A DNA stretch of 64,000 nucleotides, taken from a bacterium. GTDB taxonomy: Bacteria > Desulfobacterota > Binatia > HRBIN30 > CADEER01. Positions 17,404-41,245 of the stretch are shown here, in pieces. The translations under genes and the position numbers were made by a program. Under the pieces are notes generated by a model that was given only the letters and a program-made list of their open reading frames with translations, ran no database searches and was not told the origin of the DNA. The stretch spans positions 4,001 through 68,000 of the forward strand of contig JANNRA010000127.1 in NCBI GenBank assembly GCA_031401035.1, given 5' to 3'. Position 1 is the stretch's first letter, and each line of letters begins with the position of its first letter.

Positions 17404-17409
17404 AGTATA
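17404..17409 (-). promoter_or_regulatory. -10-like TATACT, 10 nt upstream of the hpnJ GTG
   Basis: The minus strand reads ccttcTATACTatcgggcgccGTG. There is no Shine-Dalgarno sequence between them, which suggests a very short or absent leader. Confidence 0.3.
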
Positions 17410-17538
17410 GAAGGCCCCCGGGCACGAGCAAGGGCGGTGCGGTAGACGACACCGCGCGCCGGCCGCGCGACCGCCCGCGTCGTATCCGACGACACCAGCG
17501 CGTTTTGGGGCCGTGCCGGCGCATGGTAGGCGGACCCG

Positions 17539-20766: not shown

Positions 20767-20811
20767 CGACGTTTTGCGAGGCCGCATCGCTTTGCTACGA
20801 ACGCGGCTGCC

Positions 20812-21942: not shown

Positions 21943-21943
21943 G

Positions 21944-22750
21944 ATGGCGACCACCGGCCCCGCCGCACTCGCCGCCGGCACGACGCCGCGCATCGCCGTC
22001 AGCGACCTGACCATGGCCTTCGGCAGCTTCGTGCTCATGCGCGACCTGACGTTCACCGTCGAGCAGCGCGACATCTTCATCATCATGGGCGGCTCGGGCT
22101 GCGGTAAGAGCACGCTGCTGCGCCACCTCATCGGTCTGATCGAGCCGGCCAAGGGCGACATCGCCTACGACGGCCGCAGCTTCACCGGCGCCGGCCTGCC
22201 GGAACGCGAGCAGACACTGCGCCGCCTCGGCATTCTCTACCAGAGCGGCGCCCTCTTCAGCTCCATGACGCTGGCGGAGAACGTCGGGCTGCCGCTCGGT
22301 GAGTTCACGCGTCTGACCGCCGCCGAGGTGCGCGAGGTGGCGGCGCTCAAGCTGGCGCTGGTCGGTCTCAAGGGCTTCGAGGACTTCTACCCGTCGCAGA
22401 TCAGCGGCGGCATGCAGAAGCGCGCCGGCCTGGCGCGCGCCATGGCGCTCGACCCCGACATCCTGTTCTTCGACGAGCCGTCGGCCGGACTCGACCCGAT
22501 CAGCTCCCGCCTGCTCGACGAGCTCATCCTCGAGCTGCGCGACAGCCTCGGAGCGACGATCGTCGTCGTCACGCACGAGTTGGCCAGCATCTTCACCATC
22601 GGCAACAACTGCATCTTCCTCGACGTCGACAGCCGCACCGCCATCGCGCATGGCGACCCGAAAGAGCTGCGCGACCATTCCGACCAGCCGGCGGTGCGGC
22701 GCTTCCTGCGCCGTGGCGCGGAAGAAACGGAGACTCCGCCGCATGGGTAA
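21944..22750 (+). CDS. mlaF: MlaF-family ABC ATP-binding protein
   Basis: Walker A GGSGCGKST, signature ISGGMQKR, Walker B ILFFDEPSAGLD. The start is 2 nt after the mlaE stop. Confidence 0.9.
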   Translation: MATTGPAALAAGTTPRIAVSDLTMAFGSFVLMRDLTFTVEQRDIFIIMGGSGCGKSTLLRHLIGLIEPAKGDIAYDGRSFTGAGLPEREQTLRRLGILYQSGALFSSMTLAENVGLPLGEFTRLTAAEVREVAALKLALVGLKGFEDFYPSQISGGMQKRAGLARAMALDPDILFFDEPSAGLDPISSRLLDELILELRDSLGATIVVVTHELASIFTIGNNCIFLDVDSRTAIAHGDPKELRDHSDQPAVRRFLRRGAEETETPPHG

Positions 22751-23723
22751 GAAAGCCAATCCCGCCGTCGTCGGCGCCTTCGTCCTCGGCGCCCTCGCCC
22801 TCGCCGTCCTCGGCGTGCTGGTCTTCGGCTCCGGCCGCTTCTTCAAGACCACGAACCAGTGGGTGATGTTCTTCCCCGGCTCGATCAACGGCCTGAGTAT
22901 CGGCGCGCCGGTCAAGTTCCGCGGCGTCGAGTTCGGCACCGTGACCGACATCAAACTGGTCATCGCACCCAGCAGTACCGACCAGCAGGTGTCGATCCCC
23001 GTCTATGTCGAGACCGACCCGAGCAAGGTCGACTTCTTGGACAAGGGGTTGCAGATCGCCAATGCCCAGACGCTGGCCGAGTTGGTGCAGCGTGGGCTGC
23101 GCGCCCAGCTGCAAACGCAGAGTCTGCTCACCGGCCTGCTCTTCGTCCAGGTCGATTTCTTTCCCGACACGCCGGAGAGGTATGTCCTGCCGCAGCCCTC
23201 CGACCCGCCGGAGGTGCCGACCACCGAGACGACGCTGGAGCAGGCGACGACGGCGGCGCGCGAGATCATCAACGAGTTGCGCGCCATCAAGTTCGGGCCG
23301 ATGGTGCAGGAGGCGTCCGAGGCTCTGCGGGGCATCAACCAACTGGTCAACGACCCGGCGATCAAGCAGGCGATCGGGAAGCTGCCGGGCACGGTGCAGT
23401 CGTTGAACGCGGCGATGGGCGAGGCGCGCGCCCTGGTGGCACGGCTCGACGGTGTCGTCGCGCCATTGGTGGGTCAGGTGGACACGACGCTGGCGCAGAC
23501 GCAGCGCACACTGTCGTCGATCGAACAGACGGCGGGTAACGCCAACACGTTGATCGCCCCAGGCTCGCCGCTCGACCACGACCTGCGCCGCGCGCTGCAG
23601 GAGCTCGGGCGGGCGGCGCAGGCGATTCAACTCCTCGCCGACTATCTCGAGCGCAACCCGAGCGCGGTGCTCTTCGGCAAGTCCGTCACCGAGGCGCCGA
23701 CGCCAGCAGAGGTCACCAAATGA
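22743..23723 (+). CDS. MCE/MlaD-family substrate-binding protein
   Basis: N-terminal TM segment (AVVGAFVLGALALAVLGVLVF), an MCE domain (GLSIGAPVKFRGVEFGTVTDI) and a helical C-terminus. Its ATG overlaps the mlaF stop (ATGGGTAA). Confidence 0.88.
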   Translation: MGKKANPAVVGAFVLGALALAVLGVLVFGSGRFFKTTNQWVMFFPGSINGLSIGAPVKFRGVEFGTVTDIKLVIAPSSTDQQVSIPVYVETDPSKVDFLDKGLQIANAQTLAELVQRGLRAQLQTQSLLTGLLFVQVDFFPDTPERYVLPQPSDPPEVPTTETTLEQATTAAREIINELRAIKFGPMVQEASEALRGINQLVNDPAIKQAIGKLPGTVQSLNAAMGEARALVARLDGVVAPLVGQVDTTLAQTQRTLSSIEQTAGNANTLIAPGSPLDHDLRRALQELGRAAQAIQLLADYLERNPSAVLFGKSVTEAPTPAEVTK

Positions 23724-24319
23724 CTCCTCGCCACTTGTCCGCCCGCCGCGCGCGGGTCCTTGCCGCCCTCGCCGCCGCACTGCTACTCGGTGGCTGCACC
23801 CTGATCAGCGGTCCGCAGGTGCCGCCGACCGAGTTCTTCGTCCTCAACACGACCGCGCCGGCCAGCGGTGGCCCGACGGCGCTCGCCATCGGCCTCGGGC
23901 CGCTGTCGTTCCCCGAGTATCTCGGCCGTCCGCAGGTCGCGACGCGCCTCGATGCCAACCGCATCGCCTACTCCGAGGTCAATCGTTGGGCCGAACCCCT
24001 GCAACAGAACTTCGCCCGCGCCCTGGCCGGCGATCTCGTTCAGGTCACCGGCGCGGAGCGCATCGAAATCTTCCCGTGGTACAACACCGCGCGGTTCGAT
24101 TTTCTGGTCGAGATGGCCGTGGTGCGTTTCGAGCAGCAGGTGCAGGGCGAAGCGGAGCTGGTCGCCCACTGGACGCTGCGCAGTGGCGCCGGAGCGACCA
24201 TCGCCTCGCGTACCACCTCGCTGCGCCGCATCGCCGAGACGCCGGATCAGTCGGCCGCGGCGTTGAGCGAGTTGATCGCGCAGCTTGCCGCCGAGATCGC
24301 TGCGGCGATGGGACACTGA
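23720..24319 (+). CDS. PqiC/YmbA-like (DUF330) ABC-transport auxiliary lipoprotein
   Basis: Lipobox LLLGGC. The size (199 aa) and the position after the MCE gene are typical, and there is a 4-nt overlap with the MCE gene. Confidence 0.8.
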   Translation: MTPRHLSARRARVLAALAAALLLGGCTLISGPQVPPTEFFVLNTTAPASGGPTALAIGLGPLSFPEYLGRPQVATRLDANRIAYSEVNRWAEPLQQNFARALAGDLVQVTGAERIEIFPWYNTARFDFLVEMAVVRFEQQVQGEAELVAHWTLRSGAGATIASRTTSLRRIAETPDQSAAALSELIAQLAAEIAAAMGH

Positions 24320-27850: not shown

Positions 27851-29323
<1,473 letters not shown>

Positions 29324-29381
29324 CTGTCCTCCTTCGATGATGCGTTGATCACGGGCGCGGCGGTAGCCGTGCCCGCACTGC

Positions 29382-30341
29382 CTACGGGGCGATTCCCTCG
29401 CGCCGCGCCGTGGCGACAAACAGCGCCGGGCCCTTGGCCGCCGCCTCGACCGGCAGGGCCTGTACGCGTGCCCGCGCGAAGCCCGCCTGCCCGAGCCAAT
29501 CGAGCAGCTGCCGCGGCGCGAAACCGAGCCAGACGTGACCCATCTGCTGGCGATATTCGACGTGCTCGTGCTGCGCCATGTCGATCAGCAGCAGGCGCCC
29601 GCCCGGACGCAGCGCACGCGCCGCCTCGCGCAACACCGCCGCCGGGTCGGCGACATGATGCAGCACGAGACAGATCACCGCCGCGTCGAGGCCGCCGTCG
29701 TCGATCGGCAGCGCCTCCAGTTCGCCGCGCCGCAGCTCGACATTGGCCAGGTCGGTGAAGCGGCGCCGCGCCGCGCCCAGCATGGCACGCGAGCTCTCGA
29801 CCGCGATCACCTGGTGCACGAAGGGCGCCACCGTCGCGGCGATCTGCCCGGTGCCGCAGCCGAGATCGCCGATCGTCCAGTCGTCGTCGAGAAGCCCAGC
29901 CAGGCCGACGAGATCGAAACGGTCGCCGAACATGTCGCGGCGCACCCGATCCCACTGCCCGGCGGCGCTGCCGAAGAACGCCTGCGAGCGCGTCCGCCGC
30001 CCCGCCAGCACGCTCCCCAGGCGACGATCGTCCTGCTCGGCCAGGCCGCCCTGCGCCGTCTGCTCGCGCAACAACACCCACAGCCGTCGCGCCGCCGGAT
30101 CGAGCTGCGCCGACGCCAGCCGATAGAGGCGGCTGGTCCCCTCGGAGCGCGCCGCCAGCCAGCCGTCGTCGACCAGCACCTTGATGTGCCGGCTGACGGT
30201 CGACTGCGGCAGCTGCAGCACCGTGCACAATTCGGCCACCGCCAACTCGTGCCGTTCGACCAGACGCAACAGGCGCGCCCGCGTCGCATCGGCGAGCGAC
30301 GTCATCCAGCCGAACATCGGCGCAACCGCGGTCGTATTCAT
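29382..30341 (-). CDS. sahR: ArsR-type HTH fused to a SAM-methyltransferase-fold domain (SahR-like SAH-responsive regulator)
   Basis: The N-terminus has an ArsR wHTH ([24 protein letters not shown]). The C-terminus has class I MTase motif I ([10 protein letters not shown]). It lies directly upstream of ahcY on the same strand. Confidence 0.7.
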
Positions 30342-30410: not shown

Positions 30411-33400
30411 TCACTGCGGCCAGGCGCCGGGCAGCAGCATCTCGACCATCCGGCGCCGATCGCGTACCGCCTCGGTGGCGAACCACGCGTCCCCCTCGGC
30501 GATCAGCGCGGCGCCGGCCTGGCCCCCGAGCAGGGCGCCGCGTCGCCGCCGTGCCGCGCTTGCGTACTGCTGCATGTCCGTGGCCGCGCACTGCGCTTCG
30601 GCCGCTGCCAGGTGCGCCACCGCACGCGGCACCTCCCCGCGACCGACGGCAACCGCGGAGCGAGCCAGCCCCGCCAGGGCGTTCCCCCAGGCTGTTCCCT
30701 CCCGCTCGATGCGGGTCGCATCGCGCTCGGCGTGGGCCAGCAGTGCCTGCACGGCGCGAGGGCGCGCACCCGACCCAGCCAGCACCGCAGCCGACGCCAG
30801 CGCCGCGCGGGCGCGCCACCAGCGGCTCTCGATCAGGATGGGTTGAACGTAGGCGAGGAGGGTGCGGTTCAGGGAGCGCCAGTTGGCACCGATACGGTTC
30901 CATGCTTCGACGCCACGGCCTTCGTAGAGATCGATCTCGATCGAGGCCAGCCAGTCCCAGTAGTGTTGGACCTGAAACGGGGGCTCCGACCACGCGTCGA
31001 TCCCGTCGGCCTGACTGCTGCGCGCCAACGCCGAGCGATCGGCGGCGAGGTGCACGATGTGGGCCGAGCGGGTCCGAACGTAGGTCGCCAGGTAGCGATC
31101 ATTGCGATCGTCCGCATCCTGCAGCACCGACGGAATTCGCTCGCCGAGCTCGCGCCAGCGGCCCATCCAGTTCAGCGAGTGCAGGCGGAAGATCTCGACT
31201 GCGTCGCGCTCCCAGCGCACCCCAGTGCACTGGTCGCGCAGGGTCTCCTCCGCCTCCCGGCCGCGCGCCAGCGACTCGGCGAAGTACCCCTGGAAGCTCA
31301 GAACCGCCGCGCTGTTGGCCGCCGCCAATGCCAGGGCGTGCGGATGGCCGGCGAGGCGTGCCGTTGCCCAGGTACGCGCCTGCAGCTCGCGCGTCCGGCG
31401 GGCCGCGCCGCGGCCGCGAACGACCGACCCGCCCAACTGCAGCGCCAGCGCCCGCGCCACCCGATAGGGTTCGCCGGCACGCAGTGCCAGCAATAGGTGT
31501 CGGACGACGAACTCGGCACCACGCGCAGTGTCGACGAGGGACAGGCCGATCGAGACCGACCAGCACGTGTCGATGCGCAGCAACTCATCCGCGCTCATGG
31601 CCGCCGCGTTGCGCGGCTCGAAATCGAGCCCGCGCCACCACAGGCGGGCCTGGAGCAGCAGCAGCGAGAGAAGCGCCCGGCGCGGCGTCGCCGCCAGACG
31701 CATTCCGACCATGGCCAGGACGTCGCGCAACGTCGCGAGCCCGGTCCCGATGTGCCCGCTGATGAGGTACTGCTCGGCGGCGAGCCGCCGCAGCTCGACT
31801 GCCGCCACGCGCTCGGCCCCAACGGCGGCCTCCAGATAGGTGGACGCCGCCGCGGCGCCGCGGCCCGCATTCGCCAGCGCCGCGGCGAGGCGGGCCTGGC
31901 GGGCGCGCCGCTCGCCATCGTCGGCCTGGGCGATCTCGAGACTCCAGCGGTACAGTCGGACCGCGCGGTCGAACGCCAGCGCCCGCGCGGCGGCGTCGGC
32001 GGCCTGCGCCGCCAGACTCGCCGCGCGGCCGAGGTCGCCGCCGCCGGCCAGATGCACCGCCAAGGTCTCGGCGTCCGCAGCGCCGCTGCGCTCCCAGGCG
32101 TGTGCCAGCGCCGCATGGTGGGCCCGACGGATCTCCGACGGCAGGCGCGCAACCACAGCCTCGCGGATGCGGTCGTGCAGCGCTTCTACCGCCCCGACAC
32201 CCTGCTGGACGCGCGTCCGCGCCAGATGCAGCCGACGCAAGAGGGCGAACGCCGGGTGACGCACGCCCGGCAGCGCGGCGGCTCGCTGCGCGACGTCGAG
32301 GGGCAGCAGTTGCCCGGAGACGGCGATGACCTCGAGTAGGCGCCGCGCCGCCTCCGGCAGGTCCGCCACGCGGGCGCGAATGACATCGTCGAGTGTCAGC
32401 AGCACCGGCGTCGTGGTGGCGACAGCCCGCGTCCGCGCCAATTCTGCGACGAACAGCGGGTTGCCGCTCGCCGCGCGTGCGATCGCCTCGGCGCGCGCGG
32501 CGGTGTCGGCCGACCCACCGGCGAGCAGTGCGGACGCGAGCGAGTGCGCTTGCACTGCCGTCAGCTCGCGCAACTCGAGGTCTCGACGCTCGACCTGCGC
32601 CCCCCACGCGCCGGGATCGCGTTGGAACGCCTTGAGGAACGGACTGGTGTCGATATCCTCGGTGCGGTAGGCGCCGAGCAGCAGCAGCGCCGGGGCCGGC
32701 GACCGGAAGAGCTCCTCCAGGAGGACGATGCTATCGAGATCGCCCCACTGCAGATCGTCGAGCACCAGTATCACGGGCCGATCGGCGGCCAGACGGGCCA
32801 GCAACTGGCGCAGCGCCGCGCCCGCGCGGCGCCGTTGTGCAGGCGTCGCATCCACCCCATCACCCGCCTCGTCCCTCGCCCCTGTCACGTCGCGCAACTG
32901 GGGGAAGAGGCGCGCCAGCACGGCGACATCGGCAGCCATCGCACCGCGTCGGTCGGTTTCGGGCAGTCGGCGCAAGTGTGCGGCCAACTCGTCGACCATG
33001 CCGTCAAGCGCCTTGTACGGAACCGACTCCTGCTCGGTGCAGCGCCCGCAGAACTGCAGCGCCGAGGCCTCGGTCCGCTGCGTTGCGGCGAGGAACTCCT
33101 GCACCAGGCGCGTCTTGCCCATGCCGGATCGGCCGCGCAGGTGCACGATCGTCGGGCGTCCCTGTCGCACGCTCTCGAACGCATCGCGCAGTGCGGCGAG
33201 CTCGGCGCCGCGACCGACCAGGGACGCCTCGGCGCGCGTCGTCTCCGTGGCAATCGCCGCCCGGCCGCCAAAGCACCGCGCCACCGCCGCGCCGGGCGGG
33301 CGCGCGGCGGCAGTAGTGCGCATGAGATCCCTGCACAACGCGTCGAGATCGGCTGGGGCCCCAGGGACCAGCACGGCACCGGGCAGCGGATCGAACCGCA

Positions 33401-34043
33401 ATCGGCGCTGGATCAGCTCCGCCGGCGCGCCCTCCAGCAGCGCCCGCCCGCCCAGGGCTTCGTACAGAATCGTGCCGACGCTGAACCAATCGCTGGATTC
33501 GCATACGGCGCGCCCGGCGAGTTGCTCGGGCGCCATGTAGCGTAAGCTGCCCGCCGCCGACGCTCCGGCGCTGCGGCGCCGGCGGTCGAGCGCCAGACCG
33601 AAGTCCAGCACGACGACGCGCCCGACGGCCGTCACCAGGATGTTCGACGGTTTCAGGTCGCGGTGCAGGATACCGGCGTCGTGCAGGGCGCTGACCGCCT
33701 GGGCCAACTGCGCGAACACGTCGCGCAGCGTCGGCTCGCCCGGATGGCTCTCCAGGTACGCCAGGAGCGCGACGCCCTCGATGCGCTCCATGGTGATGAT
33801 GCAGCTCGTGCCCTGCACCTCGAGGTCATAGAGGGTGACCAGGTTCGGGTGCACGATGTCCGCCATGATGCGGAATTCGTGCTTGAGGTCGGTGAGCGCC
33901 TCCGCAGCGAATTCATGTAACGTCTTCAGGGCGACGCTGACCTGCTGGCGATGATCGAACGCCTCGTAGACGACGCCGAACGCCCCGGAGCCGAGCGGGG
34001 CGCCCACGGTGATCCACTCCGGTACGCCGGGCGGGCGATCCAT
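30411..34043 (-). CDS. PknK-like Ser/Thr protein kinase fused to an AAA/STAND ATPase and a long helical-repeat (TPR-like) C-terminus
   Basis: The kinase motifs are intact: GSGAFGVVY, VALK, HRDLKPSN, DFG and APE. Walker A is GRSGMGKT and Walker B-like is VLVLDDLQW, followed by about 750 aa of Ala/Leu-rich helical repeats. The start is set at ATG 34043, 7 nt after the upstream stop. Confidence 0.88.
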   Translation of the reverse strand: MDRPPGVPEWITVGAPLGSGAFGVVYEAFDHRQQVSVALKTLHEFAAEALTDLKHEFRIMADIVHPNLVTLYDLEVQGTSCIITMERIEGVALLAYLESHPGEPTLRDVFAQLAQAVSALHDAGILHRDLKPSNILVTAVGRVVVLDFGLALDRRRRSAGASAAGSLRYMAPEQLAGRAVCESSDWFSVGTILYEALGGRALLEGAPAELIQRRLRFDPLPGAVLVPGAPADLDALCRDLMRTTAAARPPGAAVARCFGGRAAIATETTRAEASLVGRGAELAALRDAFESVRQGRPTIVHLRGRSGMGKTRLVQEFLAATQRTEASALQFCGRCTEQESVPYKALDGMVDELAAHLRRLPETDRRGAMAADVAVLARLFPQLRDVTGARDEAGDGVDATPAQRRRAGAALRQLLARLAADRPVILVLDDLQWGDLDSIVLLEELFRSPAPALLLLGAYRTEDIDTSPFLKAFQRDPGAWGAQVERRDLELRELTAVQAHSLASALLAGGSADTAARAEAIARAASGNPLFVAELARTRAVATTTPVLLTLDDVIRARVADLPEAARRLLEVIAVSGQLLPLDVAQRAAALPGVRHPAFALLRRLHLARTRVQQGVGAVEALHDRIREAVVARLPSEIRRAHHAALAHAWERSGAADAETLAVHLAGGGDLGRAASLAAQAADAAARALAFDRAVRLYRWSLEIAQADDGERRARQARLAAALANAGRGAAAASTYLEAAVGAERVAAVELRRLAAEQYLISGHIGTGLATLRDVLAMVGMRLAATPRRALLSLLLLQARLWWRGLDFEPRNAAAMSADELLRIDTCWSVSIGLSLVDTARGAEFVVRHLLLALRAGEPYRVARALALQLGGSVVRGRGAARRTRELQARTWATARLAGHPHALALAAANSAAVLSFQGYFAESLARGREAEETLRDQCTGVRWERDAVEIFRLHSLNWMGRWRELGERIPSVLQDADDRNDRYLATYVRTRSAHIVHLAADRSALARSSQADGIDAWSEPPFQVQHYWDWLASIEIDLYEGRGVEAWNRIGANWRSLNRTLLAYVQPILIESRWWRARAALASAAVLAGSGARPRAVQALLAHAERDATRIEREGTAWGNALAGLARSAVAVGRGEVPRAVAHLAAAEAQCAATDMQQYASAARRRRGALLGGQAGAALIAEGDAWFATEAVRDRRRMVEMLLPGAWPQ

Positions 34044-34050
34044 CCGCCCG

Positions 34051-35580
34051 TCATCCCACCAGCAGCGGCAGGTCGGCCTGCGCCGAGGCGCCCGTACTCT
34101 CCGCCGCACGACCGCCCTCGAGCACGGATCCGCTGGCGTCGGTGAGCATCACCGGGTCGAAGAGGTGTCGATAGCGCGGCGCGACCGGCAGCGTCGGTGC
34201 ATAGACGGCGTCGAGCCGGGCCGTGGAGCTGACGTGGCTGCCGGCCCGGCGCAGGCGGCCGATCCCCGCGGTGCTGGCCAGATCTGGCGCCGCCCAGGCC
34301 ACCGCCTGCCCGACGGCGAGGCCCAGCTGGGCCGCGTCGAGGCGGCGGCGATACCGCCAGGCGAAGCGCGCGGCGTGCCGGAGGATTCGGGCCCGGCGGC
34401 CGCGCATCGCCACCAGGTCGGCAGCGAACCGCGCGACGGCATCGAGGGGGTCGAGCGACGCGACACACACCGTCGCCCCATCCAGGTCGCGCACGCGCGT
34501 ATTCGGCAACAGGCGACCGGCCAATGCGCAGGCATCGAAAAACGGGGTGCCCGGGTACGGCGCGGCGATCGAAACATACGCGGGCGTGGTGACATCCGGC
34601 GTGGCGAGGATGCACTCGATCTCGGCGTCGACCTCGGCCACCCGTCGCGTCGAGGGATCGAACACCAGTCCATAGGAGAGCATGATGCCGGCGTCGAGGG
34701 TGCGCCGAATCAAGTCGAGGGGGTTGTCGCGCACGTTCTGCATTTTGCGCGCGCCGCGCAACCAGGCAACGTCGAGCGATTCGATGCCGCTGAACAGCGC
34801 CCGGCACCCGGCCGCCCGGGCCTCGCCCAGCAGCGCATCGTCGCGGAGGAAATCGGCTGTCACCAGCGCGCCCCAGGCGCGAAAACGCCCCGCCGCGTGC
34901 GCGGCGCGCAGGACGTCGATGCGCGCCCGCAGGGCAGCCCGATCCGGCCCGGCGAAGTTGTTGTCGAGAAGTATCACGACCGCGCGGCGGCCGAGCGCCA
35001 GCAATTGCCGCTCGAAGACGACCGGGTCGGACGCCACATGGCGACGCCCCTCGGCGGTGAGCGAGCAGAAGCCGCAGCGGAAGTTGCAGTTGCGGCTCGA
35101 CTCGGCGTAGCCGATGCGGCCGATCCACGGCGCCAGGTCGTAGCGCGGCCACGCCGGCTCGGCGACGCTCGCCGGGCCGAAGACAGCGCGCGCGACGACC
35201 GCCAGTTCTTCAACGTCGCCACGGCACGCGTAATCGAACACGGACCGGCTGAGGACCGGGAAACTGCGCACCGCGTGGCCCCCAGCAACGACGACGACGG
35301 CCGGATTGGCGGTCCGCGCATAGGCCGTGAGCTGACGCATGCGATCCATCGCGCTGGTCAGGCCGGTCAGCACCAACATGTCCGCCCACGCCAGCGCGCT
35401 GCGGTCCAGCAGCGGCCCGCCGGCCAGCTCGCAGTGCAGGCGCACCTCGCACCGCGCCGGAGCCAAGACCCCCGCCAGCAGCACCGGCGCCAGGGCCTGC
35501 GGCACCTTGCGCGGACGGCGCGGACCCGCCCTCGACGCATCGAGGTAGCAGTTGACGATCAGGACCCGTGCGCGTCGCAT
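34051..35580 (-). CDS. B12-binding-domain (class B) radical SAM protein, unknown substrate
   Basis: N-terminal Rossmann-like B12-binding region (VLIVNCY...DMLVLTG...VVVAGGH) and the radical SAM motif SSRNCNFRCGFC. 509 aa. Confidence 0.82.
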   Translation of the reverse strand: MRRARVLIVNCYLDASRAGPRRPRKVPQALAPVLLAGVLAPARCEVRLHCELAGGPLLDRSALAWADMLVLTGLTSAMDRMRQLTAYARTANPAVVVVAGGHAVRSFPVLSRSVFDYACRGDVEELAVVARAVFGPASVAEPAWPRYDLAPWIGRIGYAESSRNCNFRCGFCSLTAEGRRHVASDPVVFERQLLALGRRAVVILLDNNFAGPDRAALRARIDVLRAAHAAGRFRAWGALVTADFLRDDALLGEARAAGCRALFSGIESLDVAWLRGARKMQNVRDNPLDLIRRTLDAGIMLSYGLVFDPSTRRVAEVDAEIECILATPDVTTPAYVSIAAPYPGTPFFDACALAGRLLPNTRVRDLDGATVCVASLDPLDAVARFAADLVAMRGRRARILRHAARFAWRYRRRLDAAQLGLAVGQAVAWAAPDLASTAGIGRLRRAGSHVSSTARLDAVYAPTLPVAPRYRHLFDPVMLTDASGSVLEGGRAAESTGASAQADLPLLVG

Positions 35581-35714
35581 TCCCGTCTCGGCCGGCCGCC
35601 CCCTGCGATGGAGCCTGCGCTGTGGTAACTACGCCCGCTGCCGGCGCGCAAGCGGCGCTTGTCAGCGGCGCGGCGATCCGTTAGGTCCACCGCCATCAGC
35701 ACTCGAGGGCCTTC

Positions 35715-36503
35715 ATGGCGATGCTCCTGACGAACTATGCGGCCGTACGCGACGCGCTGCGCCCCGGCGACGTCCTGGCGTTCGGCGGTACGAACCCGCT
35801 CTCGGTGCTCATCAAGGCCACCGCCAACTCGCCGGTGTCGCACGCGGCGATCGTCACCGCCGCCGCCACCGGCGCGGGCGACGCGGTGCTCGCCGAATCG
35901 ACGGTGGAGCTCAGCTCGCCGCCGGTGTTCGGCGTCCACCAGGCCGCCGGCGGGGCGATCGTCGGCGCCTACAAGGGGGCGGTCTGGTGGCTGCCCCTGG
36001 AGCGCAACGGCTACGGCGCGCACTTCAATCAGGCCGGCTTCAGCCAGTTCATCAAGGATGCCCGCGCACGGCCGTTCGACGTCCTGGGCGGGCTGCGCGT
36101 CGTCCTCAGCGACCTCGTCGACCTGCTGCGCGCGCTGCGCGCCGCGCAGCTCTTCGACAGCGACCGCGACGTCGGCGCGTTGTTCTGCTCGGAGTTGGTC
36201 GCCGGCGCGCTGGTCGGCGCCGGCATCGTCACAACCGTCCCGCCGGTCGACCCGGCCGACGTCTCGCCAACCGACCTCTGCGCCTGGAGAATCTACGAGC
36301 CGGACTACCATCACCTGCGCGGCGCCCAGGCGCCCATCGGCACCTTCGCCACGCGCGCCCCGGGTGCGGTGACGGGAACGCACGCGCTGCACCGGCGCAC
36401 GCTGCTGCAGCAGGCGGCGCAACAGCGGCTGGCGGAGATTCTGGTCAGCGATCCGCTGCACGCGCACGCCCTGCAGCACGCCCTCGACGCCATGCTGAAG
36501 TGA
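35715..36503 (+). CDS. Permuted papain-fold peptidase/amidase, YiiX/YaeF (C92)-like
   Basis: PGDVLAFGG...SPVSHAAIV (the His comes first), then LFCSELVAGAL (the Cys comes later). This is the circularly permuted NlpC/P60-like order. The assignment is from memory of the family. Confidence 0.5.
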   Translation: MAMLLTNYAAVRDALRPGDVLAFGGTNPLSVLIKATANSPVSHAAIVTAAATGAGDAVLAESTVELSSPPVFGVHQAAGGAIVGAYKGAVWWLPLERNGYGAHFNQAGFSQFIKDARARPFDVLGGLRVVLSDLVDLLRALRAAQLFDSDRDVGALFCSELVAGALVGAGIVTTVPPVDPADVSPTDLCAWRIYEPDYHHLRGAQAPIGTFATRAPGAVTGTHALHRRTLLQQAAQQRLAEILVSDPLHAHALQHALDAMLK

Positions 36504-36523: not shown

Positions 36524-37093
36524 TCACGGCGTCGTGGGCGCGACGTAGCCGACGCTGCGCTCGACCTCGCGCAGGTAGTCGAGCAGCGCGCGCGCCTCGC
36601 CGCTGGCGTTGGTCGCCGTGCGGTCGCCGCTGCCGGAAAGGACGACCTCTTTATACAGGCGCTTGGTGGGGTCGAGTTGGTAGGCGACCTCGAGCGTGCC
36701 GCCGCTGTCGCCGGTGCCGTCGGCGTGCGTGCGGGTGATGTGGCCGCGGCTGGCGGCAGGGATCAGGCGGGCGTTGTCGAGCAGGGTACGCGTGTCGACG
36801 GTGCCGACCTGGCGCGCCCCCTTGTGCTTGGTGACCATGTCGCGTTCGCTCAGCTCGCCGAGTTTGAGCTTCTCCGGGTACCATGGCGTGCCGTGGTGCT
36901 CGTAGGCCCAGACGATGCCGTCGCCGTCGATGTACATGCCGCTCAGCCGGTAGTCCCAGCCGAGTTGCAGGGTGTAGCGCTCGAGTACCACCGTGCCGGC
37001 AATGTCGTCGGCGGTGATCTTAGGGTCATCCATGGCGCCGCACCCCGCCAGGGTGAACAGCAGAGCCAGCGCCAGCCCTCGCATCCGCATCAT
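36524..37093 (-). CDS. Hypothetical lipoprotein
   Basis: MMRMRGLALALLFTLAGC lipobox; 189 aa; no recognisable family. It is the last gene of the secreted-protein string. Confidence 0.55.
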   Translation of the reverse strand: MMRMRGLALALLFTLAGCGAMDDPKITADDIAGTVVLERYTLQLGWDYRLSGMYIDGDGIVWAYEHHGTPWYPEKLKLGELSERDMVTKHKGARQVGTVDTRTLLDNARLIPAASRGHITRTHADGTGDSGGTLEVAYQLDPTKRLYKEVVLSGSGDRTATNASGEARALLDYLREVERSVGYVAPTTP

Positions 37094-37152
37094 CCGCTCC
37101 TCCTTCCGCGGGCTGCCTATAGCACGCGCCGCGACCCAGGCATCCTGCCTGG

Positions 37153-38877
37153 TCAGCGCCCGACACGCTCCGCGGCGCCGCGGTGCCGCGCCGTGACGCC
37201 GGCGCTGCCGTTCTCGCGCAGCTCGTCGGCGGCGAACACGCTCTCCCAACAGGCACCGGTGGCGGCGCGCCACTGGACGCGCAGCGGGCTGTCGACGCCG
37301 CCGGCCGGCAGGCGGACGCCGGCGGCCTGCGCCTGCAGGCGGGTGCGGCCGGCGCGCAGCACGGCGCGCGACACGCTCGCCGCGGCCGCTGACGCGTCGC
37401 GGTACCTGAACCCGGCCCCACCGTCACTCCGCCAGTGATCTCCCGCGGCGACGACGAGGCCCGCCAGCGGCCGCGGCGCGGCAGCATCGAAGACACACAG
37501 CGCCGCGGTGCCGGCCGGAACGCCGAACCGCGCCAGCGTCGACGCCGCGCCGCGCCGCCAATGCCACGTCAGCGATCCCGCGCCGGTGATCTGCAGCTCG
37601 GCGCGCCGCGCGGCGGCGCAGCCGGACCCGTCGAGCGGCGCATGCGCACAGGCGGCCCGTTCGACGTCGCAGACATCGTCGGTGCAGGGGTCGGCGTCGG
37701 ACTCGCACCGGGTGCCGGCCGGCGCCAGCACGCAGGTCGCCGTGCAGCATTCATCCGCCGACGCGGCGACATCGCAGGCCTCGCCGAGATCGACGACCCC
37801 GTCGCCGCAGGCGCCGGCGGTGGCCTCATGGGCGCCGATGTCGCAGCGGCCGTGGCGCGGCGCGCCGCGCTGGTCGGTGCCGGGGCATCTCGCCTCGTTG
37901 CCGGCGTCGATCGCCGCGCTGGACACGGCCAGGGCGTGTGTCGGCGTCGCCCCGCCGGTGGCACGCAGGGGCAGCAGCGCCGCGACGGCGCGCGAGAGAT
38001 CGGAGGCGCGCGACCACGGGCAGGTGCCGTCGTCGTCGAGGTTGCTGCCGAGCGAACGGCCGCTCCCCGGGGCGCAGTTGCCGGGGGCGTTGCCGGCCAG
38101 CAGCGTAGCGACGAAGAGCAGCGAGAGGGCACCGGCGTCGTTGCGCACGCCACCGCCCTGGTTGTAGGCGATGGTGCTGCTCTCGATGGCGCACGGCGCC
38201 GCGAATCCGCACTCCTGGTCGATGAAGACACCGCCGCCATCGGCCGCGGCGTTGCCGCTCACCGTCGCGTTGCGCAGCAGGAGGGCGCGCGTGAAGCCCT
38301 GGTAGTAGAGGCCGCCGCCGCGACTGGCGCGATTGTCGCGCAGCGTCGAGTCGACGACCGTGAGATCGCCGGCTCCGACGTAGGCGCCGCCGCCCCAGCC
38401 GTCGCTGTCGTTCTCCGCCAGAACGACGCGCTCGAGGGTGAGCCCGCCGCCCTGGACGGCGACGCCGGCGCCATTGCCGGCACCGCCGCGCAGACGCCCG
38501 CCGCGCAGGGTCAGGTCGACCAGGCGCACGACGCCGTTGATCACGTGCACGACGCGGTCGAGACGCTGCGCGTCGATGATGGTCGCCGCGGCGCCGGCGC
38601 CGCTGATGACCACATCGGCGCCGACGTCGAGATCGCCGCGGCGTCCGTCGTCCTCACCGGCGCCGGCGCGCGACAGCAGGAACAGGCCAGCCGGCAGCTC
38701 GATGCGATCCTCGTTGCGCCGCGCGTTGGCCACCGCGATCGCCTCGCGTAGCGAGCAGTGCGCGTCGCAGGCGCCGTCGACGGTGTCGTCGCTGGTGGTG
38801 ACGGTGAACGTCGCGGCGCCGGCGGGCAGGCCGCCGACGGTGACGGCGGCAAGGAGGCAGACGAGCAGGACGCGCAC
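37153..38877 (-). CDS. Secreted CSLREA-domain, right-handed beta-helix protein with C-terminal Cys-rich repeats
   Basis: TVTTSDDTVDGACDAHCSLREAIAVAN is the CSLREA signature. Gly/Asn-rich parallel beta-helix repeats follow, then GACGDGVVDLGEACD..CCTATCVLAPAGTRCESDADPCTDDVCD (a Myxococcus-type Cys-rich repeat). The start is set at GTG 38877 and is uncertain. Confidence 0.7.
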   Translation of the reverse strand: MRVLLVCLLAAVTVGGLPAGAATFTVTTSDDTVDGACDAHCSLREAIAVANARRNEDRIELPAGLFLLSRAGAGEDDGRRGDLDVGADVVISGAGAAATIIDAQRLDRVVHVINGVVRLVDLTLRGGRLRGGAGNGAGVAVQGGGLTLERVVLAENDSDGWGGGAYVGAGDLTVVDSTLRDNRASRGGGLYYQGFTRALLLRNATVSGNAAADGGGVFIDQECGFAAPCAIESSTIAYNQGGGVRNDAGALSLLFVATLLAGNAPGNCAPGSGRSLGSNLDDDGTCPWSRASDLSRAVAALLPLRATGGATPTHALAVSSAAIDAGNEARCPGTDQRGAPRHGRCDIGAHEATAGACGDGVVDLGEACDVAASADECCTATCVLAPAGTRCESDADPCTDDVCDVERAACAHAPLDGSGCAAARRAELQITGAGSLTWHWRRGAASTLARFGVPAGTAALCVFDAAAPRPLAGLVVAAGDHWRSDGGAGFRYRDASAAAASVSRAVLRAGRTRLQAQAAGVRLPAGGVDSPLRVQWRAATGACWESVFAADELRENGSAGVTARHRGAAERVGR

Positions 38878-38926
38878 CGCGGCACTGTGCCTGCCGGCGC
38901 CGCCGACGGGCAAGCGCCGCGCCCTC

Positions 38927-41245
38927 CTACTGACAACTCGGCGGCGGCAGGGTGTGGAACTCGACGCTGGTACCGCCGCCGCCACTCGAGCCGCGCGTGA
39001 TGCCGAGCGTGCCGGCGTGGCCGGGCGCGAAGTGCGGGTTGGAGCCGAGCGCGTCGGCGCTCATCGTGAACGGCTCCAGCACCAGGCCGCTCTGCGCGTC
39101 GCTGCCGAGCAGCTCATAGACGGCGATGACGCCGTTGGTCGCCGTGCGGCTGGTGTACTGCGCCACCCAGTCGGCTCCCATCGGGTGGACCTGCGTCGTC
39201 CAGCGGTGGTTGGTCTTCTCGGCCACCGTGTCGATGACCCGGTCGGCGATGTCGATCGAGTTGCTCGCCGTGCGCGCGAAGGTCGCGAAGTGAATCTGCC
39301 AGGGCGCGCTGTGCGAGCGGGCCGAGTTCTCGGTCCACAGGGCGGCGAAGTGGCCGCCGTTCCAGGCGATGTCCGGGAACTCGTCCCACAGGTATTCCTT
39401 GTCGCCGGGCACTTTCTTGTGGCCGCTGATGACGCCCGTCAGCGGCCAGTACCTGGTCATCGTGCCGCCATCGGCGATTTTGATGTCCTTGACGCTGAGG
39501 ATGGCGAAGCCGGCGCCGTCGAAGGCCGCCGCCGGGTAGAACTGGTGCGTCAGGTCGAAGTCGACCAGGTTGACCACCGCGCTGGTGGCGGCGCCGTTGG
39601 CGTCGAGCTTGAAGGCGTAGGCGCATGAGTGGCCGGCGCACTCGCCCTCGACGACGCCGAGGAAGCCGCCCGGGAAGGCGTCGATGTCCCCGTCCGACTC
39701 CTGGTCGTACACCGGGCTGACGAACAGCGTCGGACCGACCGGGTGGCGATGGCTGAGGGCGCCCAGCGTGGTCATCGACTGGTAATACAGCGTCGCGTTC
39801 TCGGCCGTCAGCAGACCGAAGTGATCGCCGTTCCAGGCGACCATGTAGTAATGGGCGCGGAAGGCGATCTTGGGAATCTGGATCACCATCGTCGGGGCGA
39901 CGGTGATCTGCCCGGCGAGATCGACGTGCGCGTAGTACAGGCGCGCAAAGTTAGTCGCGCCGGGATCCTGGCGCAGCCAGAAGATTCCCCAGCCGCTGTC
40001 GGTGGGGATGGTGCGCGTCAGCCACACCTCGCCGCCCGACTGCTGACTGATGGTGAGCGGCGCCGAGACGTTCCAGGCGAGCCCGCTGACACAGGTCTGC
40101 GTCGGCGTCGGCGACGGCGTCGCGGTCGGCGTCGCGGTCTGCGTGCGCGTGCCCGTGCGCGTCGGGGTGTTGGTCGTCGTCGCGCTCGGCACCAGCGTCG
40201 CGGTGGCGGTGCGCGGCGGCGTGCTGGTGCGGGTCGCCGTGCGCGTGTTGGTCGGCGTGCGCGTGTCGGTGATCGATGGCGTCTGGGTCTGGGTGTTGGT
40301 GCCGGTGGCGCTCGGCGTCGGCGTCTTGGTGCGCGTCGGCGAGAGGGTCGCGGTCGGCGGCACGGTCGCGCTCGGCGGGATGGCGGCGGTGAAGGTCCGC
40401 GTCGCCGCGCTGGTGGTCGTTCGCGTACCGCTGGCGGTCGCGGTCGGCGGCGGCGTCGCGCTGGCACTGGCGGTCGCGGTCCATGTCGCGGTGGGCGGCG
40501 GCGCGGTCCATGTCGCGGTGGCGGTCGACGTTGCGGTGTCGAGCGGCGTTGCGGTGTCGAGCGCCGCGGCCGTGTCGACCGGCGTCGCCGTGGCGGTCGG
40601 CGTCGTGCCCGGCGCCTGCCAGTTACCAGTGCAGTCGCCGAAGAGGATGGCGAGGAAATCCTGCCCGGCGACCGGTGGCGACAACGGCGTGAACGCGATC
40701 GCGCCGGGCACGCAGACCGGCGCCATCTGCGGCGTCACCAGGCTCTGGTTGAGGGCGCTGGCGGGACCGGGGACGAAGGCGAAGTCCGAGCCGCAGGTCT
40801 CGGCGACCGGCAGGCGATCGCGCATGCCGGCGACCAGTTGCAGCATACGCGCCGCGTCGAGGGCGCTGATGCTGCCGTCGCCGGTCACATCGCACGCCAG
40901 GCGCTGCTGGGCGGTGAAGGTGCGGCTGCCGACCACTGCCTGCAACGTCCAGGTGGCGTCGAGCGCGCTGACGCCGGCGCCGCGGTCGCCGAGCTTGCTT
41001 GGCGTCAGCTGCCAGTCGCCCGGCCCCGGATCGGCGAAGGCGAAGGCGCCGCCGAGGTCGCTGTAACTGGCCGTGCTGCCGACGCCGTCGAGCGCGACCA
41101 CCACCGCGGGCACCGCCGCGCCGCCGCTGTAGTAACGCACCTGACCGCTGACTTCGCCCTGCGCCTGCGCGTGCTCAGGCAGGGCGATCAGCGCCAACAG
41201 CGCCAGTCCCACCCGTCCGCAGCAGCTTGCCAACAACGCCTCCAT
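38927..41245 (-). CDS. Large secreted protein: N-terminal beta-sandwich, dockerin-like Ca-binding repeat, 170-aa Thr/Pro linker, 380-aa unknown C-terminal domain
   Basis: It has a signal peptide. The dockerin-like motif is ACDVTGDGSISALDAARMLQLVAG. The T/P/A/R low-complexity linker spans aa 212-384. The C-terminal domain has repeated W/Y-containing beta segments and I recognise no family for it. Confidence 0.65.
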   Translation of the reverse strand: MEALLASCCGRVGLALLALIALPEHAQAQGEVSGQVRYYSGGAAVPAVVVALDGVGSTASYSDLGGAFAFADPGPGDWQLTPSKLGDRGAGVSALDATWTLQAVVGSRTFTAQQRLACDVTGDGSISALDAARMLQLVAGMRDRLPVAETCGSDFAFVPGPASALNQSLVTPQMAPVCVPGAIAFTPLSPPVAGQDFLAILFGDCTGNWQAPGTTPTATATPVDTAAALDTATPLDTATSTATATWTAPPPTATWTATASASATPPPTATASGTRTTTSAATRTFTAAIPPSATVPPTATLSPTRTKTPTPSATGTNTQTQTPSITDTRTPTNTRTATRTSTPPRTATATLVPSATTTNTPTRTGTRTQTATPTATPSPTPTQTCVSGLAWNVSAPLTISQQSGGEVWLTRTIPTDSGWGIFWLRQDPGATNFARLYYAHVDLAGQITVAPTMVIQIPKIAFRAHYYMVAWNGDHFGLLTAENATLYYQSMTTLGALSHRHPVGPTLFVSPVYDQESDGDIDAFPGGFLGVVEGECAGHSCAYAFKLDANGAATSAVVNLVDFDLTHQFYPAAAFDGAGFAILSVKDIKIADGGTMTRYWPLTGVISGHKKVPGDKEYLWDEFPDIAWNGGHFAALWTENSARSHSAPWQIHFATFARTASNSIDIADRVIDTVAEKTNHRWTTQVHPMGADWVAQYTSRTATNGVIAVYELLGSDAQSGLVLEPFTMSADALGSNPHFAPGHAGTLGITRGSSGGGGTSVEFHTLPPPSCQ

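What the first reader, a model, noticed from the sequence alone, without database searches (positions are those of the whole stretch)
30411..35580. Class B (B12-binding) radical SAM gene tightly coupled to a PknK-like kinase-STAND-TPR giant
The radical SAM stop (34051) and the kinase ATG (34043) are 7 nt apart on the same strand. All kinase catalytic motifs are intact, and the kinase is followed by a Walker A/B NTPase and about 750 aa of helical repeats. No precursor peptide, sugar or lipid biosynthesis genes accompany the radical SAM enzyme. A cofactor-dependent radical enzyme paired with a STAND-type switch kinase is not a module I recognise. It could be a protein- or metabolite-modification signalling unit, or a STAND-based sensing or defence-like system in which the radical SAM enzyme is the effector.
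Basis: partly seen in the sequence, partly recalled or inferred. Interest (0 to 1): 0.65.

Follow-up and report, generated by a model that had tools for sequence, protein, structure and literature searches.

The report
Radical SAM enzyme paired with sensor kinase
An uncharacterised radical SAM enzyme and a giant sensor kinase sit back to back in this window and stay together across several bacterial phyla, so they form a real, undescribed working unit whose chemistry is still unknown.

Summary
Window 34051-35580 (-) encodes a 509-aa radical SAM protein with a class-B-like fold. Seven bases downstream, 30411-34043 (-) encodes a 1210-aa protein made of an active Ser/Thr kinase, an AAA_16 STAND NTPase, a winged helix and a TPR solenoid.

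The adjacency is not accidental. The enzyme belongs to a tight, unnamed family (45-60% identity across phyla). In 30 of 42 genome loci with at least 8 kb of flank on both sides, an orthologue of this same kinase lies within 10 kb. All four additional close homologues looked up have it directly downstream.

In other lineages the neighbour is again an AAA_16/TPR protein, but with a different output domain: sigma-54 activator, adenylate cyclase, TIR or winged-helix DNA binder.

The link is one-sided: most members of the kinase family have no radical SAM neighbour.

No known defence, RiPP or lipid-methylase family fits. My best reading is an enzyme plus its ligand-gated STAND regulator or receptor, probably acting on acyl chains or lipids. 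That mechanism is inferred, not shown.

The parts
34051..35580 (-). Radical SAM enzyme of 509 aa, 'family A'. It has an N-terminal Rossmann-like (B12-type) domain (aa 1-140), a radical SAM core (aa 155-350) and a conserved C-terminal domain.
   Evidence: Translation; Pfam; AF2 model; Foldseek. More than 900 full-length homologues at about 45-60% identity; 134 representative clusters (50% identity) at E<=1e-30, many of them fragments.
35065..35088 (-). CxxxCxxC motif (C165, C169, C172) that binds the [4Fe-4S] cluster and SAM.
   Evidence: invariant in 78 of 78 family members.
34044..34050 (-). 7-nt junction between the radical SAM stop codon and the kinase ATG, implying co-transcription and probably coupled translation.
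   Evidence: Relatives have junctions of 0, 9, 10 and 13 nt.
33234..34007 (-). Hanks-type Ser/Thr protein kinase domain (aa 13-270 of the 1210-aa protein), with all catalytic motifs intact.
   Evidence: Pfam Pkinase 1.5e-41. The catalytic motifs are conserved, with their key residues invariant in 38 orthologues.
32364..33221 (-). AAA_16-type STAND NTPase (aa 275-560) with Walker A GRSGMGKT and Walker B LVLDD.
   Evidence: Pfam AAA_16 4e-25; conservation.
30411..32363 (-). Winged helix plus a TPR-like solenoid of about 26 helices (aa 561-1210), the presumed sensor or partner-binding domain. It carries the near-invariant motif (R/Q)CTGVxWE.
   Evidence: AF2 pLDDT 94.7. Foldseek matches APC5, Tom70, Ski3 and DdvA. 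Family members and conserved motifs.
35715..36503 (+). Divergently transcribed 262-aa permuted papain-like (NlpC/P60, C92/YiiX-like) cysteine hydrolase. It is the third conserved member of the module in the window's clade. H43 and C158 are invariant.
   Evidence: Profile against PDB 3kw0 'cysteine peptidase', E=1.3e-8. Pfam Peptidase_C92 is weak, 2 of 5 members. Homologues lie within about 5 kb of the pair, mostly directly beside it, in L005, L044, L166 and L167. Remote homologues follow the kinase in L165, L080, L098 and L119.
35581..35714 (.). 134-nt divergent intergenic region between the hydrolase gene and the radical SAM gene. It is presumably a shared promoter region and holds no credible peptide ORF.
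   Evidence: No promoter consensus found and no Rfam match.

Best explanation
The two genes, plus the divergent cysteine hydrolase gene, form a conserved functional module. It pairs an uncharacterised class-B-type radical SAM enzyme with an AAA_16 STAND signalling protein.

**Shown**
- The genes are co-transcribed, judging from the 7-nt junction.
- Both proteins keep all their catalytic motifs.
- The pairing is kept across phyla and across different gene orders.

**Inferred**
- The STAND protein is the ligand-gated regulator or receptor for the enzyme's pathway. Its TPR solenoid would bind a conserved endogenous ligand or partner: the enzyme's substrate or product, or the enzyme itself.
- Nucleotide-dependent switching of the NTPase would then turn on the kinase. 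The kinase would phosphorylate the enzyme or a pathway regulator.
- In other lineages the same job would be done by STAND proteins whose output is a sigma-54 activator, a cyclase, a DNA-binding winged helix or a TIR domain.
- The enzyme's substrate is most likely an acyl chain or membrane lipid. This rests on recurrent neighbours: acyl-CoA ligase, enoyl-CoA hydratase or MaoC, fatty-acid desaturase, patatin, and PLC/EEP-type phosphoesterases.
- The reaction would be a radical modification, such as C-methylation, of an unactivated carbon.
For: - **Anatomy.**
- **Conserved pairing.** 30 of 42 radical-SAM-centred genome loci with at least 8 kb of flank on both sides hold the orthologous kinase-STAND-TPR. 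It is immediately downstream on the same strand in L005, L044, L070 and L080, and in 4 of 4 further close homologues, each with different flanking genes. In Pyrinomonadaceae and Blastocatellia it is convergent, 2-5 kb away.
- **Other STAND partners of the same enzyme family.**
  - Sigma54_activat+HTH_8+AAA_16+TPR_12, at a 10-nt gap or a 4-nt overlap.
  - TIR with weak NACHT/AAA_16 matches, at an 8-nt overlap.
  - Cyclase-AAA_16-TPR, a second kinase-AAA_16, kinase-TPR and Trans_reg_C-TPR.
  - An ECF sigma plus kinase-TPR pair, divergent from a paralogue of the enzyme.
- **Further radical SAM subfamilies.** Two more diverged subfamilies with weak or partial B12-binding and Radical_SAM matches sit next to members of the same kinase family, in four different gene orders.
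- **Sensor conservation.** The TPR domain is as conserved as the catalytic domains: 0.67 mean pairwise identity against 0.66 and 0.68. This points to a conserved endogenous ligand.
- **Acyl/lipid-type neighbours in independent lineages.**
Against: - No step of the mechanism is demonstrated. The substrate, the cobalamin dependence, the kinase's target and any physical contact are all unknown.
- The enzyme also occurs without any STAND neighbour, in the Brocadia and Scalindua loci and in L066, L071 and L078.
- Only about 12 of 82 kinase-centred metagenomic loci show a radical SAM gene, although many of those contigs are short. The kinase family therefore has other jobs as well.
- The TPR parts of the non-kinase STAND partners are not orthologous to the window's sensor. 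That weakens the idea of one common ligand.
- A TIR output does not fit a simple 'regulator of the enzyme' model.
- The lipid theme rests on neighbour genes from common families. Patatin, EEP, TIR and peptidase domains are also typical effectors of conflict systems.
Confidence: 0.45

Rival explanations
1. This is a signal synthase and receptor pair. The radical SAM enzyme would make or mark a small molecule or peptide that is the specific ligand of the adjacent STAND-TPR receptor. The receptor would then fire whichever output it carries: kinase, sigma-54 activator, cyclase or TIR. In logic this resembles LuxI/LuxR or cyclic-nucleotide systems.
For: - The enzyme stays 45-60% identical while the partner's output domain varies.
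- The enzyme gene comes first and is tightly joined to the receptor gene in several lineages.
- The sensor domain is under strong purifying selection.
Against: - The sensor solenoids of the different partner types are not orthologous beyond the winged helix and the first repeats.
- Most receptors of the kinase family lack the enzyme.
- No precursor peptide or substrate-supplying gene is conserved.
Confidence: 0.2
2. This is an NLR-like conflict or anti-phage system. The STAND protein would sense an invader, and the kinase, the cysteine hydrolase or patatin or TIR, and the radical SAM enzyme would act as effectors.
For: - The architecture is STAND plus TPR.
- One lineage has a TIR-STAND partner.
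- Hydrolase neighbours recur: papain-like, patatin and EEP.
- In the window's clade the module sits in a different genomic context in each genome. In one case it lies near an integrase and SbcCD-like genes.
- The kinase domain matches the mad6 and PD-T4-6 models.
Against: - The enzyme has no PADLOC model, and the kinase hits cover only the generic kinase domain.
- The sensor is not hypervariable.
- In Pyrinomonadaceae the pair lies in a conserved block of gene order next to housekeeping-type genes and metabolic genes.
- Acyl-CoA ligase, enoyl-CoA hydratase and desaturase neighbours are not conflict-type genes.
Confidence: 0.12
3. This is a protein or peptide modification unit, similar to a RiPP pathway. 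The radical SAM enzyme would modify a peptide or a protein, possibly the kinase itself. The papain-like hydrolase would process it, and the TPR would hold the substrate.
For: - TPR solenoids usually bind peptides or proteins.
- A cysteine peptidase-like gene is conserved in the window's clade.
- One member of the kinase family sits beside YcaO plus a B12-type radical SAM protein.
- The kinase scores against the TOMM kinase/cyclase fusion model TIGR03903, but far below its cut-off.
Against: - There is no precursor ORF in the window, and the intergenic regions are only 134, 7 and 69 nt.
- The enzyme has no SPASM or RiPP-recognition domain hits.
- The enzyme is far more conserved across phyla than RiPP tailoring enzymes usually are.
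- The enzyme persists where the kinase is absent from the 10-kb flanks, which argues against the kinase being its substrate.
Confidence: 0.1
4. The adjacency is accidental. Kinase and TPR proteins are simply abundant in these genomes.
For: The kinase-STAND family is large and mostly has unrelated neighbours.
Against: - The same orthologue pair recurs in several phyla, with different gene orders and different flanks.
- Tight or overlapping junctions recur.
Confidence: 0.02

Closest known systems
Mycobacterium tuberculosis PknK (kinase, AAA_16/MalT-like NTPase, TPR), which regulates the lipid-modifying mymA operon through VirS (from my own knowledge, not retrieved here)
   Same: The domain order is the same: an active Hanks kinase, then an AAA_16 STAND NTPase, then a helical-repeat C-terminus. 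As at the PknK locus, relatives of the window pair have acyl-CoA ligase and lipase-type genes nearby.
   Different: Orthology to PknK was not tested. No AraC-type partner such as VirS is present. The conserved partner here is a radical SAM enzyme, which is not part of the PknK/mymA system.
STAND transcription regulators that sit beside the enzymes they control (MalT, the LAL family, AfsR/SARP-NB-ARC-TPR)
   Same: All share a nucleotide-switch NTPase, a winged helix and a superhelical sensor next to pathway genes. Sigma-54 activator and winged-helix output versions occur next to the same enzyme family.
   Different: The window protein has no DNA-binding domain, and its output is a protein kinase. 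Neither the inducer nor the regulon is known.
Structurally characterised class B (B12-type) radical SAM enzymes: TokK, OxsB, CysS, MgmA and AprD4
   Same: The three-domain fold is shared: an N-terminal Rossmann-like domain, a partial TIM barrel with CxxxCxxC and a C-terminal domain. The N-domain aligns to the cobalamin-binding stretch of TokK.
   Different: Identity is only 12-17% and TM is 0.5-0.6. The NCBIfam scores for BchE, HpnR, PhpK and AprD4 are far below their cut-offs. The best fold match, AprD4, has the domain but no cobalamin. The family also has three extra near-invariant cysteines in the N-domain.
TOMM system kinase/cyclase fusion protein (NCBIfam TIGR03903), which lies next to YcaO RiPP clusters
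   Same: Both are giant proteins combining a kinase, and in some cases a cyclase, with an NTPase and TPR, next to a post-translational-modification type enzyme. One member of the kinase family here lies beside YcaO plus a radical SAM protein.
   Different: The score is 128 bits against a cut-off of 706, and the best-scoring stretch covers only the kinase domain. The window has no cyclase domain, no YcaO and no precursor peptide.
Bacterial NLR-like / Avs-type STAND defence proteins
   Same: Both have a STAND NTPase with a repeat sensor and an N-terminal effector-type domain. A TIR-STAND variant occurs next to the same enzyme family.
   Different: The module has no PADLOC match. The sensor is conserved rather than diversifying. 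The pair lies in a stable block of conserved gene order in one whole bacterial family.

Membership tests
Radical SAM superfamily | CxxxCxxC cluster motif within a partial TIM-barrel core | tested here: met
   C165/C169/C172 are invariant in 78 of 78 relatives. Fold matches to radical SAM cores. Pfam Radical_SAM scores 25.1 bits, below the gathering score of 29.5.
Class B (cobalamin-dependent) radical SAM | N-terminal Rossmann-like cobalamin-binding domain | tested here: inconclusive
   The fold is present. Pfam B12-binding scores 30.8 against a gathering score of 32.1. A (T)xL...GG stretch aligns to TokK. However, the top fold match, AprD4, lacks cobalamin, and the N-domain carries three conserved cysteines.
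Class B (cobalamin-dependent) radical SAM | Cobalamin actually bound and used in catalysis | not testable with these tools
   This needs the purified protein, UV-vis or EPR spectroscopy and product analysis (SAH plus 5'-deoxyadenosine).
Known lipid/cofactor B12-type radical SAM families (BchE, HpnR, HpnJ, PhpK, AprD4, ApyD) | Score above the NCBIfam equivalog cut-off | tested here: not met
   The best scores are 16-31 bits against cut-offs of 481-750.
PknK-like kinase-STAND-TPR architecture | Active Hanks kinase domain | tested here: met
   Pkinase E=1.5e-41. The catalytic K, E, HRD, N, DFG and APE residues are present and invariant in 38 orthologues.
PknK-like kinase-STAND-TPR architecture | AAA_16/STAND NTPase with Walker A and B motifs, followed by a winged helix | tested here: met
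   AAA_16 E=4e-25. Walker A and B motifs are conserved, with the key residues invariant. The winged helix is in the AF2 model.
PknK-like kinase-STAND-TPR architecture | C-terminal superhelical repeat domain | tested here: met
   pLDDT is 94.7 and the domain is all-helical. Foldseek matches TPR proteins at E of about 1e-4, with TM up to about 0.5 for the APC5 chains.
PknK-like kinase-STAND-TPR architecture | Orthology to M. tuberculosis PknK | not tested
   No PknK sequence was compared. 'PknK' appears only as a source's name for one homologue.
Known anti-phage defence systems (PADLOC-DB) | Match of the component proteins to the models of one system | tested here: not met
   The radical SAM protein, the hydrolase and the upstream proteins have no hits. 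The kinase hits only kinase-domain models (mad6, PD-T4-6).
RiPP biosynthetic cluster | Precursor peptide gene plus a recognition, maturation or export set | tested here: not met
   No small ORF lies in the intergenic regions. There is no SPASM or RRE hit. YcaO occurs only in one distant relative locus.
NlpC/P60 permuted papain-like hydrolases (C92/YiiX-like), for the third gene | Permuted His...Cys catalytic pair and sequence similarity to family members | tested here: met
   H43 and C158 are invariant. The profile hits PDB 3kw0 at E=1.3e-8. Pfam Peptidase_C92 matches only weakly, at E=0.006.

The most novel reading that the evidence does not exclude
The radical SAM enzyme synthesises or marks the ligand for a family of STAND receptors with interchangeable outputs (kinase, sigma-54 activator, cyclase, TIR). 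That would be a previously unknown bacterial signalling system built on radical chemistry.

A more specific version is also open. The enzyme could be a sensor-controlled C-methylase or C-C coupling enzyme for membrane-spanning or branched lipids in Acidobacteriota. The enzymes for that chemistry have not been identified there: PMC13159169 reports no Mss homologue, and Tes homologues in only 3 of 14 acidobacterial genomes.
Probability: 0.15. Interest if true: 0.85.

Novelty: new variant of a known kind. Interest (0 to 1): 0.6.

Why it matters
STAND proteins with repeat sensors are switches whose ligands are almost never known. Here a whole family of them is tied to one conserved enzyme, which gives a concrete handle on what they sense or control. 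The enzyme family has no assigned function, yet it is widespread in soil Acidobacteriota, Gemmatimonadota and related groups. Its neighbours point to acyl-chain or membrane-lipid chemistry. If so, the pair would be a sensor-coupled lipid-modifying unit, which bears on how these bacteria adjust their membranes. More speculatively, it bears on the unknown enzymology behind branched tetraether lipid proxies. If the enzyme instead makes the receptor's ligand, this would be a new kind of signalling system.

Tried and rejected
- **Defence system.** The enzyme has no PADLOC hit and the kinase only generic kinase-domain hits. The sensor is not hypervariable.
- **Known rSAM families.** NCBIfam scores and a PDB sequence search are far below any assignment.
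- **RNA elements.** No riboswitch or other RNA element was found: there are no Rfam matches in the window or in three related loci.
- **Promoters and terminators.** The scan was uninformative at 72% GC.
- **Precursor peptide.** No credible small ORF lies in 35581-35714.
- **ArsR-methyltransferase and AdoHcy hydrolase.** These lie downstream of the kinase and were tempting as a SAM-cycle link. None of the relatives examined keeps them, so I treat them as unrelated neighbours.
- **Acyl-CoA ligase and enoyl-CoA hydratase as universal members.** They are specific to Pyrinomonadaceae. Elsewhere only weak (25-29% identity) or non-orthologous counterparts occur.
- **Kinase-domain density near versus far from the enzyme.** This was uninformative, because in the convergent arrangement the kinase domain lies 5.5-7.5 kb away.
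- **GDGT/brGDGT literature.** It names no enzyme that corresponds to this family. A search for '5-methyl iso-diabolic acid' found no paper holding that term.
- **P0224 (Sorangium).** The context look-up found no record.
- **YcaO.** It lies next to one kinase relative only.

Full report
**What is in the window**

The window is 72% G+C. The radical SAM protein it encodes is also found, with an identical sequence, on two metagenomic contigs.

On the minus strand, 34051..35580 encodes a 509-aa protein and 30411..34043 encodes a 1210-aa protein. The first gene ends TGA at 34053-34051. The second starts ATG at 34043, seven bases later.

The first protein carries CxxxCxxC at C165, C169 and C172. It scores just under the Pfam gathering thresholds for B12-binding (30.8 against 32.1) and Radical_SAM (25.1 against 29.5).

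The second protein has:
- a Pkinase domain (residues 13-205, E=1.5e-41);
- an AAA_16 NTPase (residues 275-451, E=4e-25);
- a long C-terminus with no Pfam match.

**The enzyme**

An AlphaFold2 model built from 26 homologues has pLDDT 84 and pTM 0.87. It shows an N-terminal Rossmann-like domain, a radical SAM barrel and a helical C-terminal domain.

The best PDB fold matches are AprD4, OxsB, MgmA, CysS, MiaB and TokK, at TM 0.5-0.6 and 12-17% identity. By sequence, only the cobalamin-binding stretch of TokK aligns, and weakly. NCBIfam models for BchE, HpnR, HpnJ, PhpK, AprD4 and ApyD score 16-31 bits against cut-offs of 481-750.

The enzyme is thus class-B-like in fold but belongs to no characterised family. 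Cobalamin binding is not established, because AprD4 has the same domain without cobalamin.

The family is tight:
- It has more than 900 full-length homologues at roughly 45-60% identity, all unnamed or carrying automatic names.
- It has 134 representative clusters (50% identity) at E<=1e-30, many of them fragments.
- Besides the cluster motif, C11, C44, C119 and C259 are almost invariant. I cannot explain this.

**The kinase**

The glycine loop, VALK lysine, alphaC glutamate, HRDLKPSN, DFG, APE, Walker A and Walker B motifs are all present. Their key residues are invariant in 38 full-length orthologues.

Residues 562-1210 model at pLDDT 94.7 as a winged helix followed by about 26 helices. The closest structures are TPR solenoids: APC5, Tom70, Ski3 and the anti-sigma factor DdvA. 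This is the standard STAND layout of effector, NTPase, winged helix and repeat sensor.

**Is the adjacency conserved? Starting from the enzyme**

A scan of one genome per species returned 80 loci. Most are Pyrinomonadaceae and Blastocatellia. Terriglobia, Gemmatimonadota, Deltaproteobacteria-type MAGs, Brocadia, Scalindua, a Burkholderiales MAG and others are also present.

An orthologue of the kinase lies in the same locus in 48 of 83 loci. Its C-terminal domain is 38-51% identical to the window's over 650 aa. Among loci with at least 8 kb of flank on both sides, the figure is 30 of 42.

There are two arrangements:
- **The window's own clade** (L005, L044, L070, L080). The kinase gene follows the enzyme gene on the same strand, with junctions of 0-13 nt where gene starts are clear. 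Four further close homologues were looked up individually, and all four show the same pair. Each has different flanking genes.
- **Pyrinomonadaceae.** The enzyme gene points toward an operon that runs kinase, enoyl-CoA hydratase, acyl-CoA ligase. In 14 loci a patatin-like phospholipase lies just downstream of the enzyme gene on the same strand. In 6 loci a fatty-acid desaturase does.

**Other partners of the same enzyme family**

Where the orthologous kinase is absent, the neighbour is often another AAA_16/TPR signalling protein:
- a 1354-1357-aa fusion of a sigma-54 activator and HTH_8 with AAA_16 and TPR_12, joined to the enzyme gene by 10 nt or a 4-nt overlap, in a Methylomirabilota MAG and a second MAG;
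- a TIR protein with weak NACHT/AAA_16 matches, overlapping the enzyme's stop codon by 8 nt;
- a zinc-ribbon-cyclase-AAA_16-TPR protein, a second type of kinase-AAA_16, a kinase-TPR and a Trans_reg_C-TPR protein.

A paralogue of the enzyme in Pyrinomonadaceae lies divergent from an ECF sigma factor plus kinase-TPR pair. It is followed by a SAM methyltransferase and an EEP-family protein.

The Brocadia and Scalindua loci instead have a TonB-dependent receptor next door. A few loci (L066, L071, L078) have nothing comparable.

**Starting from the kinase**

The C-terminal domain family is large. It includes about 1000-aa Sorangium proteins that have no Pkinase hit.

Of 82 kinase-centred loci, mostly short metagenomic contigs, about 12 carry a radical SAM gene nearby:
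- four from the window's family, at 44-48% identity;
- four from a subfamily at about 30% identity;
- four from a remote subfamily with weak B12-binding and Radical_SAM matches.

Together these occur in four different gene orders.

Several loci with ample flanks have none. Their neighbours are unrelated to each other: an ECF sigma factor, TonB-type receptors, FG-GAP proteins and a PrsW-FHA protein.

On a neighbour-joining tree of the sensor domain, the kinases linked to the enzyme form the large Pyrinomonadaceae clade and the window's clade. Kinases linked to the other two subfamilies are scattered.

The association is therefore strong from the enzyme's side and weak from the kinase's side.

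**A third member**

The 262-aa gene transcribed divergently from the enzyme gene (35715..36503, +) has no Pfam hit on its own. It does have homologues at about 31-38% identity:
- directly beside the pair in L005, L166 and L167;
- about 5 kb upstream of it in L044.

More remote homologues lie just after the kinase gene in L165, L080, L098 and L119.

A profile of five members hits the PDB cysteine peptidase 3kw0 at E=1.3e-8. Two members hit Pfam Peptidase_C92 weakly. H43 and C158 are invariant. This is a permuted papain-like hydrolase of the NlpC/P60 type. It was not found in the Pyrinomonadaceae loci.

**What it probably does**

Several facts tie the enzyme to the STAND switch rather than to the kinase domain as such:
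- The junctions are tight.
- The pair is kept across phyla with different flanks.
- The partner's output domain is swapped between lineages while the enzyme stays conserved.

The sensor solenoid is as conserved as the kinase and NTPase domains. Mean pairwise identity is 0.67, against 0.66 and 0.68, and the window's sensor is about 0.40 identical to the acidobacterial clade. This fits a conserved endogenous ligand or partner. It argues against a pathogen-sensing arms race.

Partners with transcription-factor outputs, and the divergent ECF sigma plus kinase pair, fit the familiar picture of a regulator sited beside its pathway.

The recurring neighbours in independent lineages point to an acyl-chain or membrane-lipid substrate:
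- acyl-CoA ligase, plus enoyl-CoA hydratase or a MaoC dehydratase;
- fatty-acid desaturase;
- patatin;
- PLC-type phosphoesterase;
- EEP proteins;
- BcrAD/BadFG activase plus DUF2229;
- Acyl_transf_3;
- GMC oxidoreductase.

This lipid link is an inference from common gene families, and I hold it with moderate confidence only. Some of these domains (patatin, EEP, TIR, peptidase) are also typical effectors of conflict systems. The defence reading therefore cannot be excluded, although PADLOC gives no support for it.

**Comparison with what is known**

I found no paper that links this kind of kinase with a radical SAM enzyme.

The closest paradigms are:
- PknK of M. tuberculosis next to the mymA lipid operon (from my own knowledge);
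- MalT-, LAL- and AfsR-type STAND regulators;
- the TOMM kinase/cyclase fusion family (TIGR03903).

None of them includes this enzyme family.

PMC13159169 reports that the enzyme forming membrane-spanning lipids in Acidobacteria is unknown. It found no Mss homologue, and Tes homologues in only 3 of 14 genomes. That leaves room for a speculative role for this family, but nothing here tests it.

**Verdict**

The pairing is a real, conserved and apparently undescribed module, and in the window's clade it is extended by a third gene. The mechanism remains inferred. I rate it a new variant of a known kind (a STAND regulator or receptor coupled to a neighbouring enzyme), with interest 0.6.

Noticed in passing
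window 11390-17435 (-): A second radical SAM gene with a B12-binding domain lies at 15936-17435, and its Pfam scores are above threshold. It sits directly upstream of an outer-membrane efflux protein, a HlyD-type adaptor, an ABC ATPase and a MacB/FtsX permease. This looks like a radical SAM enzyme plus a tripartite exporter.
   Followed up: partly
window 27851-30341 (-): An ArsR-type HTH fused to a class I SAM methyltransferase (29382-30341) is followed by S-adenosylhomocysteine hydrolase. Both lie just downstream of the kinase. They are not kept with the pair in any relative examined, so they are probably unrelated methyl-cycle genes.
   Followed up: yes
window 17539-24319 (+): A Mla-like lipid-transport cluster: a 1075-aa DUF748-like protein, an MlaE permease with an N-terminal STAS domain, an ABC ATPase and an ABC_trans_aux lipoprotein. 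It indicates that the host has an outer membrane.
   Followed up: no
window 36524-41245 (-): Three genes upstream on the same strand have weak or no domain matches. They are a 188-aa predicted lipoprotein, a 586-aa protein with a weak beta-helix hit and a 772-aa protein with a dockerin-like repeat. The 188-aa protein has no counterpart in the related loci; the other two were not compared.
   Followed up: partly
window 34051-35580 (-), residues C11, C44, C119, C259: Four cysteines outside the CxxxCxxC motif are 94-99% conserved in 78 family members. Three of them lie in the N-terminal Rossmann-like domain. They could mark an auxiliary iron-sulfur site rather than, or as well as, a cobalamin site.
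   Followed up: partly
L168 9582-13655 and L169 7502-11566: These are giant fusions of a sigma-54 enhancer-binding module and HTH_8 with an AAA_16 STAND NTPase and TPR repeats. They lie immediately downstream of the same radical SAM family and are followed by a GMC oxidoreductase.
   Followed up: partly
L029 2166-9536; also L036, L042: Pyrinomonadaceae carry a second copy of the enzyme. It lies divergent from an ECF sigma factor plus Ser/Thr kinase-TPR pair and is followed by a SAM methyltransferase and an EEP-family protein.
   Followed up: partly
L151 4976-11950: A YcaO cyclodehydratase and a remote B12-type radical SAM gene lie divergent from a member of the same kinase-STAND family. This was the only such case among the loci searched.
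   Followed up: partly
L083 8580-12388: The kinase-STAND gene on this long-read contig is broken into several frames, which looks like assembly indels. Its 795-aa gene call is therefore only a fragment.
   Followed up: partly
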